This document shows, piece by piece, positions 22,924 to 28,500 of a stretch of DNA of 64,000 bases (positions within the stretch are counted from its first letter, which is position 1; each line of letters begins with the position of its first letter). The notes below the pieces were generated by a model that did no database searches, was not told where the DNA came from, and worked only from the letters and a program-made list of their open reading frames with translations. The translations under genes were made by a program, and so were the position numbers. The stretch comes from Candidatus Kapaibacterium sp. (GTDB lineage Bacteria; Bacteroidota; Ignavibacteria; Kapaibacteriales; UBA2268), in assembly GCA_963664875.1 (NCBI GenBank), contig OY761611.1, positions 3,360,001-3,424,000 of the forward strand. Reading direction: 5' to 3'.

Positions 22924-23832
22924 TTGAAAAAACTACTTTTACTAATTAGCATAAGCATCCTTGCCTTCGGGTGCAGGTCAAAACTGTTAGAAGGCGAGAT
23001 TTTGGAAGCCTATAAGCTAGATTTAAATGATAATACAGCTATCTCCCCTCACCCATTAAAGATGGAAATGGGGCTTGAGCTATGGGATTTAAGACTTGAC
23101 TTATACAGAAAGGAATATACCAGAAAGAAACCGGGAGATGACACTCCTTTAGATCTAAGACCGACAGATCGTATGACTAACATGGCTATAGGTCTTCATC
23201 TGGGTAACGGACTTTTTGTAGATTGTAATGAAGTCGTGGGAGTAGATATACTTGATTTCTACGATGTAGATGCAGAAAAGACAGACATTGTAATTCAGTT
23301 CCCAACTGCAGAAGAAAAGATTCAGAGAAGAATAGTTAAAGAGGATGATTTTATCGTTGGCTATTATTCCAATGAAGAAGAAGCTGAACGCACATACAAA
23401 TTTTACAAAGATAGTGTCAGATCTTACTATAGTGACAGAGGATCATTTGTTACCTATGTAATGACAGACCAGTCTTATAGATTAAACACAAGCATGGGTT
23501 ATGCACTAGTGAAAAAGGGAGAGCATAAGTACGAGAAAGAAGCAGGCATGTTTTTCAAGAACAGAGATTTTGAGAGGCTAGCACCCGATACCTTGCAGTT
23601 TGAAGAAACAATGGTAATCCGCACAGATAAAGAAATTCAAATATTGGAAGATGATCCGAGAGAATTAGACGACGGCAGCTACGTTGTAGATAAGCACCTA
23701 ATTATCAAAAAAGACGGTTTCGTATGCTACGACTACAAAGGAGAATGCTTTAGATCCAACAGAGTAGCAGATACGATATTTGTACATAGAAATCACGAAC
23801 TTACAATGAAGATGCAGCTGGTGAAGAGGTAA
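22924..23832 (+). CDS. Hypothetical lipoprotein
   Basis: AAGGA RBS with TTG start; AFGC lipobox; 302 aa. Confidence 0.75.
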   Translation: MKKLLLLISISILAFGCRSKLLEGEILEAYKLDLNDNTAISPHPLKMEMGLELWDLRLDLYRKEYTRKKPGDDTPLDLRPTDRMTNMAIGLHLGNGLFVDCNEVVGVDILDFYDVDAEKTDIVIQFPTAEEKIQRRIVKEDDFIVGYYSNEEEAERTYKFYKDSVRSYYSDRGSFVTYVMTDQSYRLNTSMGYALVKKGEHKYEKEAGMFFKNRDFERLAPDTLQFEETMVIRTDKEIQILEDDPRELDDGSYVVDKHLIIKKDGFVCYDYKGECFRSNRVADTIFVHRNHELTMKMQLVKR

Positions 23833-25132: not shown

Positions 25133-25161
25133 AGCCGCAGGGTTAATCCTACGGCTTTTTT
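25133..25161 (+). terminator. Intrinsic terminator
   Basis: AGCCGCAGGG...TCCTACGGCT followed by a T-run. Confidence 0.7.
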
Positions 25162-25263
25162 ATATGTATTTGTATAGGAAATATGTCTATATAGTAGAAT
25201 TATCGCAGTATTTACAATATACAATACTGATATATAAAGTGATTATTTTACACAACTAACTCG

Positions 25264-25309
25264 ACTTTTAGGGAGTATAATCCCCAAAAGTCTAAACTTT
25301 TGGGGATTA
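25264..25309. repeat. 46-bp palindromic repeat downstream of the DUF4143 gene
   Basis: ACTTTTAGGGAGTATAATCCCCAAAAGT-CTAA-ACTTTTGGGGATTA; direct copy at 26583..26628. Confidence 0.9.
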
Positions 25310-25340
25310 CAATCACATATAGTAAAGTAAATTAGGGGAT

Positions 25341-26492
25341 TTATTCTCCACTCTCTTCGAAATAATCTATTTCAGTAAGGAAGCGAAGGTAATTTCCTTT
25401 ATTGATAATAGCTACTTTTGCATCCGGGTAAGCGTCTATAAATGCAGACGTAACTCTGCCTTGATTTTCTCTATATTTGAACTCAAATGCATAAAGCATT
25501 CCATCACGTTCTTCAATATAATCTACCTCGCTGCCGCTTTTAGTTCTCCAAAAATAAGCAGAATAGTGGATGTTTGAGTTGTTGAGTAGTTTCATCCTTT
25601 CGACAATGAGATAGTTTTCCCACAAAGCACCCCGGTCATTTCTCATAGGTATAATTTTGAAATCATTGATAATTGCATTTCGTATTCCATTGTCGTAGAA
25701 ATATATTTTATTGCTTTTCCTAAGTTCACTTCGAGCATTGTTAGAGTATGAAGGCAACTCAAAAATCACGAATGCCTGCCGTAGCAAATCAATATACCTG
25801 ACAACTGTTTTTTTGTCAATACCTATCAAATTTGCAAGCTCGTTGTAAGAAACCAAATTGCCAAGCTGAAAAGCAATTGCTTTGACTAATCTATCTAGGA
25901 ATTCAGGTTTACGTAAGTCATTTAGCATAAAAATATCTTTGAAAAGATATGAAGAAGCAATCTCTAAAAGTATTTCAACCTCATCTCCCGGACTAATGAC
26001 TACTTCCGGGTATGAGCCATAGACTAATCTATGCTCTCTTCGCCTTATCTCTTCAAATGTAGAATGGTGCTCAGACAATTCGGCAAATGACATAGGTAGC
26101 ATGAAAAACTCAAACTTCCTGCCGGTCATTGATTCTTTGATTTTGTCATTAATCTCCAAAGAAGAAGATCCTGTAATCAAAATGGCTTTTTCCGGAAAGT
26201 TGTCAACGAGTAATTTAACTGTTACGCCTATGTTTTCAATCCTTTGAGCCTCATCAATAGCAATTAAATCATGATTAGCAATGATAGACTGCAGAGTAGA
26301 AGAGTTTGCATTTTGTAGCATCACCCTTACATCAGGCTCGTCGCAGTTCAAATATAAAGCACTATCGTACCTGTTGCGAGCGATCTGTCTAACTAATGTC
26401 GTTTTTCCGACCTGCCTGGCACCAAGTATAATTATTGCTCTTCTCGAATTCAATTTGCGAACTATGATATTTTCCATATTACGGTTAATCAT
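25341..26492 (-). CDS. AAA_14 ATPase with DUF4143 domain (HTH plus PD-(D/E)XK-like C-terminus)
   Basis: Walker A GARQVGKTT, Walker B IDEAQ, TGSSSL, ESMTGR, YGSYP, KIYFYDNG, GALWEN, YFWRTKSGSEVDYI, AFEFK. Confidence 0.92.
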   Translation of the reverse strand: MINRNMENIIVRKLNSRRAIIILGARQVGKTTLVRQIARNRYDSALYLNCDEPDVRVMLQNANSSTLQSIIANHDLIAIDEAQRIENIGVTVKLLVDNFPEKAILITGSSSLEINDKIKESMTGRKFEFFMLPMSFAELSEHHSTFEEIRRREHRLVYGSYPEVVISPGDEVEILLEIASSYLFKDIFMLNDLRKPEFLDRLVKAIAFQLGNLVSYNELANLIGIDKKTVVRYIDLLRQAFVIFELPSYSNNARSELRKSNKIYFYDNGIRNAIINDFKIIPMRNDRGALWENYLIVERMKLLNNSNIHYSAYFWRTKSGSEVDYIEERDGMLYAFEFKYRENQGRVTSAFIDAYPDAKVAIINKGNYLRFLTEIDYFEESGE

Positions 26493-26562
26493 AAACAGCT
26501 CCGATGTTAATTTTCCAAGACTATTATACCAATAATTTTACTAAGAAGCAAATATAAAAGAC

Positions 26563-26628
26563 TATACTCCCTAAAAGTCTAAACTTTTAGGGAGTATAAT
26601 CCCCAAAAGTTTAGACTTTTGGGGATTA
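26563..26628. repeat. Double-palindrome repeat upstream of the DUF4143 gene
   Basis: TATACTCCCTAAAAGT-CTAA-ACTTTTAGGGAGTATA overlapping TAATCCCCAAAAGT-TTAG-ACTTTTGGGGATTA. Confidence 0.9.
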
Positions 26629-26688: not shown

Positions 26689-28500
26689 CTATGGCACTTG
26701 AGGGAGTATAGCTATTGGGAGTTTGATTGTAAAAGTACTACCTTCATTTGGTTTACTTTGTACGGAAATTTCTCCACCACATTTCTCGACAAGCTCTTTG
26801 CAAAGAATTAAACCTAAACCTGAGCTTGACTCGCCATTTGTTCCTAATCTTGAGGTTGATTCTGACACAGAAAATAGTTTACCAATTAGTTCTTCGCTCA
26901 TACCTATACCCGAATCTTTTATGGAAAGAGCAACAAACTTGCCTTGTATAGAAGAAGAGATTTCAATATTGCCTCCATTAGGAGTAAATTTCACTGCATT
27001 CGAAAGGATATTCCTGACAATACCGTTGCACATGTTGTTGTCTGATTCTATAAAAGTATTTTCCGGCACTAAATTAGTTACATTGATACTTTTGGAATCA
27101 ATTTTCGGTTCCAATAGAGCTATGTTATAAGATATCAGTTCACTAAGAATAATTGTATCAGGAGTGAAAGGAACGATGTCTCGTTGCATACGTGACCATT
27201 CTAAAAGATTTTCAAGCAAATCATATACTTTAGTAGCACTTTGTTTGAGAAGACTTGAAATTTCAATAATTTCATCATTTTCAGTAGCAACTGATTCGTT
27301 GACCAAAATTTCGGAGAGCCCTAAAAAGCCTGAGAATGGGCTTCTAAGGTCATGAGCTATAATAGAAAAGAACTTATCCTTTTCTTTTATTGATACTTCC
27401 AATTTGTTATTGGTCTCAATAAGGTGATTGCTTGTTTGAATAAGTTTTTTATTAAGTTCATCTGTTTTTATCTTTGAAGCTATAAACATTCCTATAAAAA
27501 ACAACAAAATAGCAGCTACTATCATGCTTACGATTAGAAATGCGTTGTTGTTATAAATTAATTGACTCAATGTCTCATCTCTCGAATAAGAAATGATGTA
27601 GGCTACAGGTATATTTTCTACATTTTTGATGTTTACAAAAGAAACTATGTAAGTGTCTTCTCCTATTTTGGCATATTTTGAAAAATCTTTGTTTGCATTT
27701 ACTAATGTTCCGATTTCATCTTTGATTTTTTCGTTGATAAGCGATATCACCTCAAGAGATTCTTCTCCTATATGATTGTATTTGTTTTCTAAGAGAAAAT
27801 CTTCTGAAATTGGGCAAGCAATATAATTTGAAAGTTCATCATCAAATACTTTTGATTCGACTATATCTTTTTTGATCATCATACATGAATATTTGATGCC
27901 CAGTTGATTCAGGTTTTTGCCTATACCTTCGAAGGAAAAGCTTGTCTCCACGCTACCTAAATGGTCCCCATTATACAACAATGGGAATACATAGCGAAAG
28001 CCGTTAAAAATTCTGCCCTCTTCAAACCCGATTGTTTCTTTTTTAGTTTCGTTGGTTTTCTTTACTGTATATCTTACGTTTGTCAAATTATCACCAAACT
28101 TTTCTGGTCTGTGGAATCTTAGAAAACTTGTATTATCCGGAAGATGGAAGTGTAGCTGTTTGATGTCAATCTTTCTTAAATTTTGATATGTTCTTTCAAG
28201 TAATAGCAGTAGGCTATCTCTTACATTTTGTTGTACAGTGCTATCTTTCGAAGAAGCTTTTTGATATAATGATAGTATTTTATCATTGTTTACTATTTCT
28301 GTAAAAATTGAATAGCTCACCAGATTAAATGAATTTATCGTGGAAGATATTTTGACTTGCAATTCTTTAGCTTTTGTATCCAAGTAGCCATTATAAGTTC
28401 TTTGATTCGAGTCATTAACAGCTAAATAAAGAAGCAATTCAGTTGCTAAAATTGAAAAAAAGAGTATTATTAGGAATTTTATTTTTTGTGACGAATTCAT
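26689..28500 (-). CDS. Cache-domain sensor histidine kinase
   Basis: dCache-type FLRFHRPEKFGDNL..VR, H-box IIAHDLRSPF, NILSNAVKFT, GLGL. Start set at ATG 28500 after a GAGG RBS. Confidence 0.9.
   Translation of the reverse strand: MNSSQKIKFLIILFFSILATELLLYLAVNDSNQRTYNGYLDTKAKELQVKISSTINSFNLVSYSIFTEIVNNDKILSLYQKASSKDSTVQQNVRDSLLLLLERTYQNLRKIDIKQLHFHLPDNTSFLRFHRPEKFGDNLTNVRYTVKKTNETKKETIGFEEGRIFNGFRYVFPLLYNGDHLGSVETSFSFEGIGKNLNQLGIKYSCMMIKKDIVESKVFDDELSNYIACPISEDFLLENKYNHIGEESLEVISLINEKIKDEIGTLVNANKDFSKYAKIGEDTYIVSFVNIKNVENIPVAYIISYSRDETLSQLIYNNNAFLIVSMIVAAILLFFIGMFIASKIKTDELNKKLIQTSNHLIETNNKLEVSIKEKDKFFSIIAHDLRSPFSGFLGLSEILVNESVATENDEIIEISSLLKQSATKVYDLLENLLEWSRMQRDIVPFTPDTIILSELISYNIALLEPKIDSKSINVTNLVPENTFIESDNNMCNGIVRNILSNAVKFTPNGGNIEISSSIQGKFVALSIKDSGIGMSEELIGKLFSVSESTSRLGTNGESSSGLGLILCKELVEKCGGEISVQSKPNEGSTFTIKLPIAILPQVP

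What the first reader, a model, noticed from the sequence alone, without database searches (positions are those of the whole stretch)
25264..26628. AAA_14/DUF4143 ATPase-nuclease gene bracketed by 46-bp palindromic direct repeats with a flipped 4-nt core
Seen in sequence: both flanks carry ACTTTTAGGGAGTATAATCCCCAAAAGT-N4-ACTTTTGGGGATTA (25264..25309 and 26583..26628). The copies are identical except the 4-nt spacer, which is CTAA in one and its reverse complement TTAG in the other. The upstream side has one extra half-site, giving two abutting palindromes with 16-bp and 14-bp arms. The arrays therefore consist of 3 and 4 alternating half-sites of consensus ACTTTTRGGGAKTA. I saw the motif nowhere else in the window. 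Established: this family has an ATPase, an HTH and a PD-(D/E)XK-like C-terminus, with unknown function. Inference: inverted arms around an asymmetric core resemble recombinase or iteron sites. An autoregulatory operator would not be needed downstream of the gene, so the gene plus repeats may be a self-contained mobile or selfish unit whose protein binds its own ends.
Basis: partly seen in the sequence, partly recalled or inferred. Interest (0 to 1): 0.75.

Follow-up and report, generated by a model that had tools for sequence, protein, structure and literature searches.

The report
Defence-candidate gene's duplicated operator palindromes
The repeats are copies of the palindromic control site that this very common, untested anti-phage-candidate gene family carries in front of its genes; unusually, one extra copy lies behind this gene and another lies elsewhere in the genome.

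Summary
Two arrays of 14-nt half-sites, with 3 and 4 half-sites, bracket a 383-aa AAA_14/DUF4143 gene (PADLOC PDC-S01). They are identical over 46 nt except for a flipped 4-nt spacer.

The upstream array is this subfamily's own operator. A 32-bp-periodic palindrome array lies in front of 31 of 74 genome homologues (one of the 31 is an N-run artefact) and 14 of 26 metagenome homologues. None was found in gene bodies, downstream or far upstream. The array abuts or overlaps a TAnnTTTG promoter box. Its core bases co-vary with two residues at the start of the predicted recognition helix (K227, K228).

The downstream array is the exception. It was seen in about 3 of about 105 loci. A third, solo array lies 727 kb away, and four other genomes checked had no solo array. 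In all three copies the 28 arm bases of one palindrome are identical while the spacers differ (CTAA, TTAG, ATTG). This suggests the extra copies are kept as binding sites or hairpins.

The cassette (operator plus gene) is clearly transferred horizontally. Relatives are often flanked by long direct repeats (7 of 69 against 0 of 117 controls). I found no excision product, no fixed ends and no recombinase.

This scan has already noted the family's palindromic control site and its flanking duplications on other DNA.

The parts
25133..25165 (+). Hairpin plus T-run that ends purN. It marks the edge of the housekeeping context on the 3' side of the cassette.
   Evidence: Sequence AGCCGCAGGGTTAATCCTACGGCT followed by TTTTTTAT. 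purN matches Formyl_trans_N at 1.4e-46.
25264..25309 (.). Site A, the downstream array, 31 nt after the stop codon. It has 3 half-sites: a+ 25264-25277, b- 25278-25291, spacer CTAA 25292-25295, b+ 25296-25309. It is a direct copy of the promoter-distal 46 nt of site B with the spacer flipped.
   Evidence: There is no homology to site B's surroundings beyond the 46 nt. It folds as a 14-16-bp hairpin on either strand.
25341..26492 (-). Gene for a 383-aa AAA_14 + DUF4143 protein (PADLOC candidate PDC-S01). Layout: AAA+/STAND-like NTPase, winged HTH, then a PD-(D/E)XK-like C-terminal domain.
   Evidence: Pfam. PADLOC PDLC04789 at 1e-150. AlphaFold2 model with pLDDT 93.1 and pTM 0.92. Nearest folds are the archaeal Walker ATPases 2qen and 2fna, then CED-4/Apaf-1 and Orc1/Cdc6.
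26400..26423 (-). Walker A motif GARQVGKT (residues 24-31).
   Evidence: Translation check. G24, R26, G29 and K30 are invariant in 71 sequences.
26244..26258 (-). Walker B motif IDEAQ (residues 79-83).
25776..25817 (-). DKKTVVRYIDLLRQ (residues 226-239): the start and body of the predicted recognition helix of the winged HTH. K227 and K228 are the positions that co-vary with the operator core.
   Evidence: Helix 227-239 in the model. Covariation table and test. Translation.
25476..25529 (-). EVDYIEERDGMLYAFEFK (residues 322-339): the PD-(D/E)XK-type motif, D324 ... E337-x-K339.
   Evidence: E322, D324, E337 and K339 are at least 90% conserved in 71 sequences. They lie on strands 322-329 and 332-338 of the model. 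DUF4143 is listed as a PD-(D/E)XK family in PMC3424549 (table passage seen).
26549..26556 (-). TATATTTG on the gene strand, 64 nt before the ATG and directly after the array. It is a candidate -7 promoter box of the TAnnTTTG type.
   Evidence: One search places it at -64 in this locus. TAnnTTTG occurs on the gene strand within 120 nt upstream in 63 of 103 homologous loci, against 12 on the opposite strand, 8 downstream and 1 in the gene body. That TAnnTTTG is the Bacteroidota -7 consensus is recalled, not taken from a call.
26565..26628 (.). Site B, the upstream operator array. It has 4 half-sites: a- 26565-26578, CTAA, a+ 26583-26596, b- 26597-26610, TTAG, b+ 26615-26628. The whole forms a 66-bp imperfect palindrome. 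It begins 60 nt after the stop of the upstream histidine-kinase gene.
   Evidence: I2: 33-nt arms, 88%. It is flagged as a hairpin plus T-rich tail on the gene strand. Folding gives -42.5 kcal/mol, z -9.0.

Best explanation
Site B is the gene's own operator. The DUF4143 protein is an AAA+/STAND-like ATPase with a winged HTH and a nuclease-like tail. Its HTH reads 14-nt half-sites arranged as palindromes every 32 bp (about three helical turns, so all on one face of the DNA). These sit on and just upstream of its promoter. Bound protein would hold a potentially toxic gene tightly repressed, and the array's hairpin could also stop read-through from the kinase gene upstream.

This operator-plus-gene unit is a compact cassette that moves between genomes. 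Site A (behind the gene) and site C (solo, 727 kb away) are extra copies of the same array. They most likely arose by local duplication or recombination of the kind that often leaves direct repeats around these cassettes. The flipped spacer is a loop inversion within a perfect palindrome.

The extra copies are still constrained, so they probably still bind the protein as auxiliary operators or roadblocks, or serve as 3' hairpins. They are not transposon ends.

Shown: the array anatomy, its conservation across the family, the promoter overlap, the HTH-operator covariation, the patchy distribution of the gene, and the excess of flanking direct repeats. Inferred: binding itself, repression, how A and C arose, and what A and C do.
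For: (1) Periodicity. A 24-nt window with at least 19 matches at lag 32 occurs in the 170 nt upstream of 31 of 74 genome homologues, plus 5 at lag 33. One locus in each count, L121, is an artefact of masked N. The same test gives 0 of 74 downstream, 0 of 76 in gene bodies and 0 of 70 far upstream. It was replicated on metagenome loci: 14 of 26 upstream, 0 of 24 downstream, 0 of 29 in genes.

(2) Half-site density in 46 loci is 21.5 per kb upstream against 0.29 per kb in genes and about 0.2 per kb in far flanks.

(3) The arrays end at or overlap TAnnTTTG on the gene strand: 63 of 103 loci, against 12, 8 and 1 in the controls (sequences).

(4) Covariation. The dipeptide in D-x-x-T at the start of helix 227-239 tracks the operator core. 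KN goes with GGTGA (6 of 8), KK or KA with GGGGA (3 of 3), NQ with TGCGA (3 of 3), KSET with TCCGATA (4 of 4), and VK or TK with ATGGA (3 of 3). Same-motif pairs score 6.24 in operator similarity against 2.19 for different-motif pairs, and 0 of 2000 label shuffles reach that gap. The gap holds among pairs only 30-50% identical outside the HTH (5.35 against 2.09) (helix).

(5) Another DUF4143 subfamily, including this genome's second copy, has its own palindrome, TTTACTTATAAGTAAA, three times at a 39-40-bp period.

(6) The operator travels with the gene. DNA homology between 84%-identical genes in different bacterial families covers about 40-86 nt upstream plus the ORF and stops at the stop codon.

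(7) Specificity. The exact b palindrome occurs 3 times in this genome and in 0 of 100 other genomes of the family.

(8) Constraint on A and C. The three b palindromes have 28 of 28 identical arm bases but three different spacers.

(9) Contigs of roughly 93%-similar wastewater relatives bridge purN into the gene's 3' end across site A, and the gene's 5' end into the kinase across site B. Contigs of the site C type also occur in relatives.
Against: No binding, repression or footprint was measured. The covariation is among related sequences, and stratifying by identity removes only part of that dependence. In one search, 4 of 41 rows (L078, L094, L099, L072) carry seeds that do not fit the pattern; these may not be operators. 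About half of the homologues do not pass the lag-32 threshold.

An operator needs no copy downstream, so A and C stay unexplained in function. Their constraint rests on 32 positions in 3 copies, and I could not see the per-base differences of sites A, B and C in the relatives because the table was cut. All three loci with downstream arrays have a convergent housekeeping neighbour, but three cases are too few to say why.
Confidence: 0.7

Rival explanations
1. Self-mobilising one-gene element. The protein binds the arrays at both ends of its gene and cuts or recombines there. The cassette is then excised or integrated, and site C is a used or empty site.
For: The arrays are direct repeats on both sides here and, independently, around a 48%-identical homologue in another genus; the asymmetric operator variant GTGATCATAATCAC comes first in both of that homologue's arrays. 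A solo array with sharp edges exists. The protein carries a nuclease-like domain. Cassettes of this subfamily are flanked by direct repeats scoring at least 20 in 7 of 69 loci, against 0 of 117 shifted controls and 0 of 150 cross-locus pairs, and in 1 of 25 loci of a second set. The downstream repeat often starts 0-3 nt after the stop codon. The gene is patchy across relatives and occurs on plasmids (552 records).
Against: Downstream arrays occur in only 2 of 40 strictly scored loci, plus L084. In most repeat-flanked relatives the repeat is host sequence lying outside the operator. Its length varies from 18 to about 130 nt, and no shared end motif is visible. That pattern fits ordinary recombination or illegitimate joining better than an element with its own ends. 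The gene is present in one copy and no recombinase or transposase domain was found. No joined form appeared in 4 runs, though contigs cannot show rare forms. The arrangement is stable in relatives about 93% similar. No solo array was found in 4 other genomes. Site C contains the promoter-proximal half-site that a simple A-by-B deletion product would lack.
Confidence: 0.1
2. Sites A and C are neutral scars: leftovers of a lost tandem cassette or of a recombination event. They have no present function and look intact only because they are young or are homogenised by gene conversion.
For: Tandem cassettes exist in a relative, each with the same upstream block (L192). Site A is truncated, lacking the promoter-proximal half-site and the promoter, and its homology ends abruptly. 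The a-type half-sites of site C are degenerate. Earlier notes of this scan read similar repeats as duplication scars (e1-911802 and e1-1329603; AI notes, unchecked).
Against: The arm bases of the b palindrome are 28 of 28 identical in all three copies while the 4-nt spacers all differ. Gene conversion would also homogenise the spacers, and neutral decay would not spare the arms. All 3 A-against-C differences fall in 4 of 32 positions; my own arithmetic, not a tool result, puts the chance at about 0.001. Contigs of relatives about 93% similar run across the place of site A, and site-C-type contigs occur in relatives, so the copies are not very young.
Confidence: 0.15
3. The arrays are a small family of REP-like extragenic hairpins (3'-end stabilisers or terminators) unrelated to the protein, and the gene merely sits between two of them.
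For: All three arrays lie 21-60 nt after the stop codon of a gene that reads into them, in the same orientation. They fold into very stable hairpins (z -5.8 to -9.0). The terminator scan flags site B.
Against: There are only 3 copies in 3.83 Mb and none in 100 related genomes. Homologous genes in many phyla carry related arrays at the same upstream place with the same 32-bp period. The array core tracks the protein's HTH.
Confidence: 0.05

Closest known systems
PDC-S01 (PADLOC phage-defence candidate; COG1373; Pfam AAA_14 + DUF4143)
   Same: The protein is a full-length member: PDLC04789 at 1e-150 over residues 1-372, with both Pfam domains above their cut-offs.
   Different: The papers I saw treat the family as an abundant, unvalidated candidate. 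I found no mention of operators or flanking repeats. The new points here are the periodic operator array, its HTH code and the extra copies.
Controller (C) proteins of restriction-modification systems and their C-box operators (recalled from my own knowledge, no call)
   Same: It works alike: a small set of palindromic operators in front of a mobile, potentially toxic nuclease gene, read by an HTH encoded in the same unit, giving tight and cooperative autoregulation after transfer to a new host.
   Different: Here the HTH is part of the ATPase-nuclease itself, not a separate small regulator. There are 2 to 3.5 palindromes at a strict 32-bp period. No methylase partner is present. No sequence relation was tested.
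Archaeal Orc1/Cdc6 with origin recognition boxes
   Same: An AAA+ module followed by a winged helix that reads repeated, inverted boxes lying next to its own gene. Orc1/Cdc6-DNA complexes are among the fold matches: 2qby_B at E 3.2e-6 and 2v1u_A at 2.4e-5.
   Different: The TM-scores are only 0.28-0.30. Better matches are the archaeal Walker ATPases 2qen and 2fna (TM 0.47-0.49) and STAND proteins such as CED-4. There is no evidence of an origin or an unwinding element. The protein has an extra nuclease-like domain.
REP/BIME extragenic palindromes
   Same: Short, stable, imperfect palindromes in intergenic DNA just after genes, in tandem and alternating orientation.
   Different: There are three copies, not hundreds, and none in 100 related genomes. 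They are tied to one gene family and co-vary with its HTH.
Integrase-less cassettes flanked by duplicated host sequence
   Same: Relatives of this gene show long direct repeats at the cassette edges far more often than controls do.
   Different: In this window the repeat is the cassette's own operator, not host sequence.

Membership tests
PDC-S01 / DUF4143 ATPase-nuclease | AAA_14 and DUF4143 domains in one protein of about 370-450 aa | tested here: met
   PF13173 scores 110.9 bits (cut-off 27) and PF13635 scores 136.9 bits (cut-off 28.1). The PADLOC PDC-S01 model matches at 1e-150.
PDC-S01 / DUF4143 ATPase-nuclease | Intact Walker A/B and a PD-(D/E)XK-type motif | tested here: met
   GARQVGKT, IDEAQ and D324...E337-x-K339 are conserved in 71 sequences.
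PDC-S01 / DUF4143 ATPase-nuclease | Protection against phage | not testable with these tools
   The family itself is described as awaiting validation (PMC12988326, passage seen).
Autoregulatory operator array | Dyad-symmetric repeated sites at a fixed place in front of the gene, conserved across homologues | tested here: met
   The lag-32 signal is found upstream in 31 of 74 loci (one an N-run artefact) and 14 of 26 loci, and nowhere else tested.
Autoregulatory operator array | Overlap with the promoter | tested here: inconclusive
   A TAnnTTTG box follows or overlaps the last half-site. No transcription start was mapped, and the meaning of the box is recalled.
Autoregulatory operator array | The site sequence co-varies with the DNA-reading residues of the encoded protein | tested here: met
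   with the helix position. The caveat is that the loci are related to each other.
Autoregulatory operator array | The protein binds the site and represses its own promoter | not testable with these tools
   This needs EMSA or footprinting and reporter assays.
Transposon / insertion sequence with terminal repeats | The same terminal repeats at both ends in members of the family | tested here: not met
   Arrays lie on both sides in 2 of 40 loci scored strictly, plus L084 by eye. No shared end motif is visible.
Transposon / insertion sequence with terminal repeats | A short target duplication of fixed length next to the ends | tested here: not met
   There is no repeat outside the arrays here. 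In relatives the flanking repeats range from 18 to about 130 nt.
Transposon / insertion sequence with terminal repeats | A transposase or recombinase, and several copies per genome | tested here: not met
   Pfam finds only AAA-type and DUF4143 domains. There is one copy of this gene and one distant paralogue.
Site-specific recombination site (dif/att-like) | Inverted arms around a conserved 6-8-bp core, a cognate recombinase, and empty or joined forms | tested here: not met
   The spacer is 4 nt and differs in all three copies. Pfam finds no recombinase domain in the six genes scanned around the cassette, one of which (22924-23832) matches no family. No joints were seen in 4 runs, which hold contigs only.
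REP/BIME | Many copies spread over the genome and shared by relatives | tested here: not met
   There are 3 sites in 3.83 Mb and 0 in 100 related genomes.

The most novel reading that the evidence does not exclude
The PDC-S01 protein is the engine of its own spread as well as its own repressor. An AAA+ assembly forms on the 32-bp-periodic array, and its nuclease domain nicks at or near the bound palindromes. This starts copying or recombination that moves the one-gene cassette, leaving direct repeats and occasional solo arrays such as site C. It would be a recombinase-less, single-gene mobile element. It would also explain why the family is so often found 'embedded' in other loci, which is the property that earned it its defence-candidate label.
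Probability: 0.1. Interest if true: 0.85.

Novelty: new variant of a known kind. Interest (0 to 1): 0.55.

Why it matters
One paper I saw calls PDC-S01 the fourth most common defence candidate across prokaryotes, yet it has no tested function (PMC12988326, passage).

The analysis gives this family a concrete, testable DNA target. It predicts a periodic palindrome array at the gene's own promoter and a simple two-residue code for its specificity. That points to tight self-repression of a nuclease-bearing ATPase, and it supplies reagents for binding, structural and de-repression experiments.

The excess of flanking direct repeats, and this locus with an operator copy behind the gene and a solo copy elsewhere, keep open the question of how such single genes move without a recombinase. 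If insertion-proneness rather than defence explains their 'embedding', the defence label itself needs checking. That last point is my inference.

Tried and rejected
Empty-site search. The four same-genus genomes lack the gene; their best matches are 23-30% identical. They are also not syntenic: purN, the kinase and xseA lie far apart there. The three parts of the site C locus also lie apart. No empty site could therefore be defined.

Metagenome searches. An exact scan for the b palindrome found 0 matches. A protein scan found only relatives at 51% identity or less. No near-identical allele was available as sequence.

Laid runs. No joints were seen, but all four runs are contigs, which cannot show rare forms, and the table of differences was cut. 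I could not count substitutions in sites A, B and C of the relatives.

Relatives of the G007 cassette. None was found in 129 genomes of that family, so conservation of its downstream array could not be tested.

Solo arrays elsewhere. None was found in G007 (the one extra hit lies inside a signal-peptide coding stretch). None was found in G118-G120.

Rfam on the site C locus gave no family.

Composition gives no sign of foreign origin: the gene is 36.5% GC against 36.1% for the window.

The sigma-70 promoter scan found 10 promoter-like sites against 6.8 expected, so it carries no weight.

A sequence search of solved structures gave no hit.

The automatic palindrome-centre finder mixed the two possible centres of these doubly symmetric arrays. 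I did not use it for the covariation test and used seed-based consensus instead.

The homodimer prediction was never queued: the queue was full. There is no result of any kind.

One search was a faulty script with no result.
Full report
1. THE OBSERVATION

The sequence is as described. Site A (25264-25309) has three 14-nt half-sites. Site B (26565-26628) has four. They alternate in orientation and fit ACTTTTRGGGAKTA. The 46-nt direct repeat differs only in its 4-nt spacer, CTAA against TTAG.

All 7 exact matches in the window lie at these two sites. With up to 2 mismatches there are 10 matches against 2.33 expected, and 0 of 100 shuffles reach 10. Between the sites lies a 383-aa ORF on the minus strand with AAA_14 and DUF4143 domains. 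purN and its terminator hairpin lie on one side, and the 3' end of a histidine-kinase gene lies on the other.

In the whole 3.83-Mb genome the motif occurs at one more place, site C (G000:C1:2658050-2658110). Site C has four half-sites, two of them degenerate, and sharp edges. It lies 21 nt after the stop of nadB, with no DUF4143 gene nearby. The genome has only one other, distant DUF4143 gene.

2. THE GENE

The protein is a full-length match to the PADLOC candidate PDC-S01 (1e-150). A model built on 71 homologues is confident (pLDDT 93.1, pTM 0.92). It shows:
- an AAA+-type NTPase, up to about residue 165;
- a helical lid;
- a winged HTH, with helices at 196-208, 216-223 and 227-239, followed by a beta wing;
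- an alpha/beta domain carrying the conserved D324...E337-x-K339 motif.

The nearest solved folds are the archaeal Walker ATPases 2qen and 2fna (TM 0.47-0.49). STAND proteins (CED-4, Apaf-1, NLRs) and Orc1/Cdc6-DNA complexes follow. Sequence alone finds no solved relative.

The papers I saw list DUF4143 as a PD-(D/E)XK family of unknown function (PMC3424549, table passage). They describe PDC-S01 as very abundant and not yet validated (PMC12988326, passages).

3. THE UPSTREAM ARRAY IS THE FAMILY'S OPERATOR

I collected 79 loci of relatives (38-51% identity, many phyla) from reference genomes. The scan confirmed 579 relatives but delivered only the best 80. Gene models were found in 75 of the 79, and I added this locus.

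A plain autocorrelation test asks for a 24-nt window with at least 19 matches at a given lag.
- In the 170 nt upstream it shows a single sharp peak at lag 32: 31 of 74 loci, plus 5 at lag 33.
- One locus, L121, is masked N. It scores at every lag and should be subtracted from both counts.
- There were 0 of 74 downstream, 0 of 76 in gene bodies and 0 of 70 far upstream.
- An independent set of metagenome loci (gene models in 29 of 35) gave 14 of 26 upstream, 0 of 24 downstream and 0 of 29 in genes.

Read by eye, the unit is a 28-bp palindrome, for example ACTTTTCGGGATTA|TAATCCCGAAAAGT, repeated 2 to 3.5 times with about 4-nt spacers.

The last unit abuts or overlaps a TAnnTTTG box on the gene strand. 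The box is present in 63 of 103 loci, against 12 on the other strand, 8 downstream and 1 in genes. Its median position is -28. In this window it is TATATTTG at -64, right after the array. That this box is the Bacteroidota -7 element is my recollection, not a tool result.

A different DUF4143 subfamily has its own palindrome, TTTACTTATAAGTAAA, three times at a 39-40-bp period. This subfamily includes the genome's second copy and its orthologues in the genus.

4. THE PROTEIN PROBABLY READS THE ARRAY ITSELF

I used 41 loci whose repeated upstream 10-mer occurs in both orientations, out of 53 with at least 3 copies. In these, the operator core tracks the two residues in D-x-x-T that open the predicted recognition helix:
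- KN goes with GGTGA (6 of 8; L078 and L094 do not fit);
- KK or KA goes with GGGGA (this locus, L103, L120);
- NQ goes with TGCGA (3 of 3);
- KE goes with TCGG (2 of 3);
- KSET goes with TCCGATA (4 of 4);
- VK or TK goes with ATGGA (3 of 3).

Operator similarity is 6.24 for same-motif pairs against 2.19 for the others. These figures cover 780 pairs of 40 loci; L134 was dropped for a gap. None of 2000 label shuffles reaches that gap, and it persists among pairs only 30-50% identical outside the HTH (5.35 against 2.09). The loci are related to each other, so this is supportive, not proof.

The operator also travels with the gene. Between 84%-identical genes in different bacterial families (L083 and L095), DNA homology covers about 40-86 nt upstream plus the ORF and ends at the stop codon. 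Two other pairs behave alike.

The exact palindrome of this locus is absent from 100 other genomes of the same family.

5. THE DOWNSTREAM AND SOLO COPIES ARE UNUSUAL

Clear downstream arrays occur here, in L026 (a 48%-identical gene in another genus, with 3 units downstream and 2 upstream, in direct orientation) and in L084. By a strict count this is 2 of 40 loci. All three have a convergent housekeeping neighbour.

Solo arrays were not found in the four other genomes I could scan.

Here, homology between A and B stops exactly at the 46 nt. Site A lacks the promoter-proximal half-site and the promoter.

The three copies of the b palindrome have identical arms (28 of 28) but three different spacers: CTAA, TTAG and ATTG. 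Neutral decay would not spare the arms, and gene conversion would not spare the spacers. The extra copies therefore look constrained, either as protein sites or as hairpins.

The 'flip' between A and B is what one template switch inside a perfect palindrome would produce. With a third spacer at C, I read the spacer as free to vary, not as a recombination core (inference).

Contigs of another sample of the same organism show the same arrangement. In relatives about 93% similar, contigs from wastewater metagenomes bridge the purN-to-gene and gene-to-kinase junctions across the places of A and B. Contigs of the site C type also occur in relatives. No joined form was seen, but contigs cannot show rare forms, and I could not see the per-base differences.

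6. IS THE CASSETTE MOBILE?

The gene is patchy. Same-genus genomes have only 23-30% identical matches, while 39-51% relatives sit in other genera. It occurs on plasmids (552 records) and in a few phage-labelled contigs. COG1373 appears in a published list of genes shared across gut genera (PMC10782964, table passage).

Around relatives, direct repeats between the 300 nt on each side are far too frequent:
- a score of at least 20 in 7 of 69 loci (105 nt in L095, about 130 nt in L068, 76 nt in L128, this locus, L084, L075, L133);
- 0 of 117 window pairs shifted by 2 kb, and 0 of 150 cross-locus pairs (maximum score 15);
- in the second set, 1 of 25 (a perfect 31-nt copy of the next gene's start in L185), or 3 of 25 at a score of at least 17.

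In L095, L068, L114, L185, L192 and L084 the downstream repeat begins 0-3 nt after the stop codon. One locus has two cassettes in tandem, each followed by the same repeat.

In those cases the repeat is host sequence of variable length, and I see no common end motif. This fits recombination, illegitimate joining or accretion in a variable slot better than an element with defined ends (inference). Earlier notes of this scan on other genomes reported the same two things: a conserved palindromic control site and flanking duplications. One of those notes was later marked 'part of it fell'. They are AI notes, and I re-tested both claims on my own loci.

7. VERDICT

The best reading (about 0.7) is this. 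Site B is the autoregulatory operator array of a horizontally mobile, single-gene PDC-S01 cassette. Sites A and C are extra, still-constrained copies made by duplication or recombination.

The reading that the protein mobilises its own gene through these arrays is not excluded (about 0.1), but no tested feature of transposons or att sites is met.

Relative to the papers I could search, three things are not described: the periodic operator, its two-residue specificity code and the repeat footprint.

Noticed in passing
L068 (U -160..-118, D +62..+90), L119, L100, L086 (D +3..+135), L099, L081: Tracts of tandem 7-nt repeats (for example GTTCTAA, CTACTCA and TGAGTTT units, up to 19 copies) lie beside, and in three loci on both sides of, homologous DUF4143 cassettes. 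In L068 they are part of a roughly 130-bp element with inverted ends (AAATCTGAGAAA...TTTCTCAGATTT) that is duplicated on both sides of the cassette.
   Followed up: partly
L001:1077-1422 (G000:C1:2657653-2657998), next to site C: A roughly 345-nt non-coding stretch is 84-88% identical in all four same-genus genomes, while the neighbouring genes are only 71-78% identical. It ends in a hairpin plus T-run on the + strand and matches no Rfam family at gathering score. It may be an unnamed small RNA. In the relatives it sits at a different place from nadB and the DUF2179 gene.
   Followed up: partly
L023 (G000:C1:3661385-3664831) and L034, L036, L038, L039: The genome's second, distant DUF4143 gene and its orthologues in the genus carry three copies of a different palindrome (TTTACTTATAAGTAAA) at 39-40-bp spacing. 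The last copy touches the ATG, and a TATATTT box lies between the second and third copies.
   Followed up: partly
L192:647-3104: Two DUF4143 cassettes lie in tandem. They share about 70 nt of upstream sequence, and each is followed by the same 18-nt repeat, which is the ribosome-binding region of the next gene. This looks like stacking of cassettes at one junction.
   Followed up: partly
L185:206-236 and 1524-1554: A cassette sits 31 nt into a downstream membrane-protein ORF. A perfect 31-nt copy of that ORF's start (ATGGGCATAG...) lies on both sides, so the ORF stays intact behind the cassette.
   Followed up: no
G119:C5:16030-16049: A perfect 20-nt palindrome, TTTCCGATTATAATCGGAAA, of the KSET-type operator class occurs elsewhere in a Pedobacter genome. 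It is probably the operator of another DUF4143 paralogue.
   Followed up: no
window 26695-26711: A half-site-like stretch (CTTGAGGGAGTATAG, one base short of the a-type half-site) lies inside the last codons of the kinase gene, 70 nt from site B. It may be chance.
   Followed up: no
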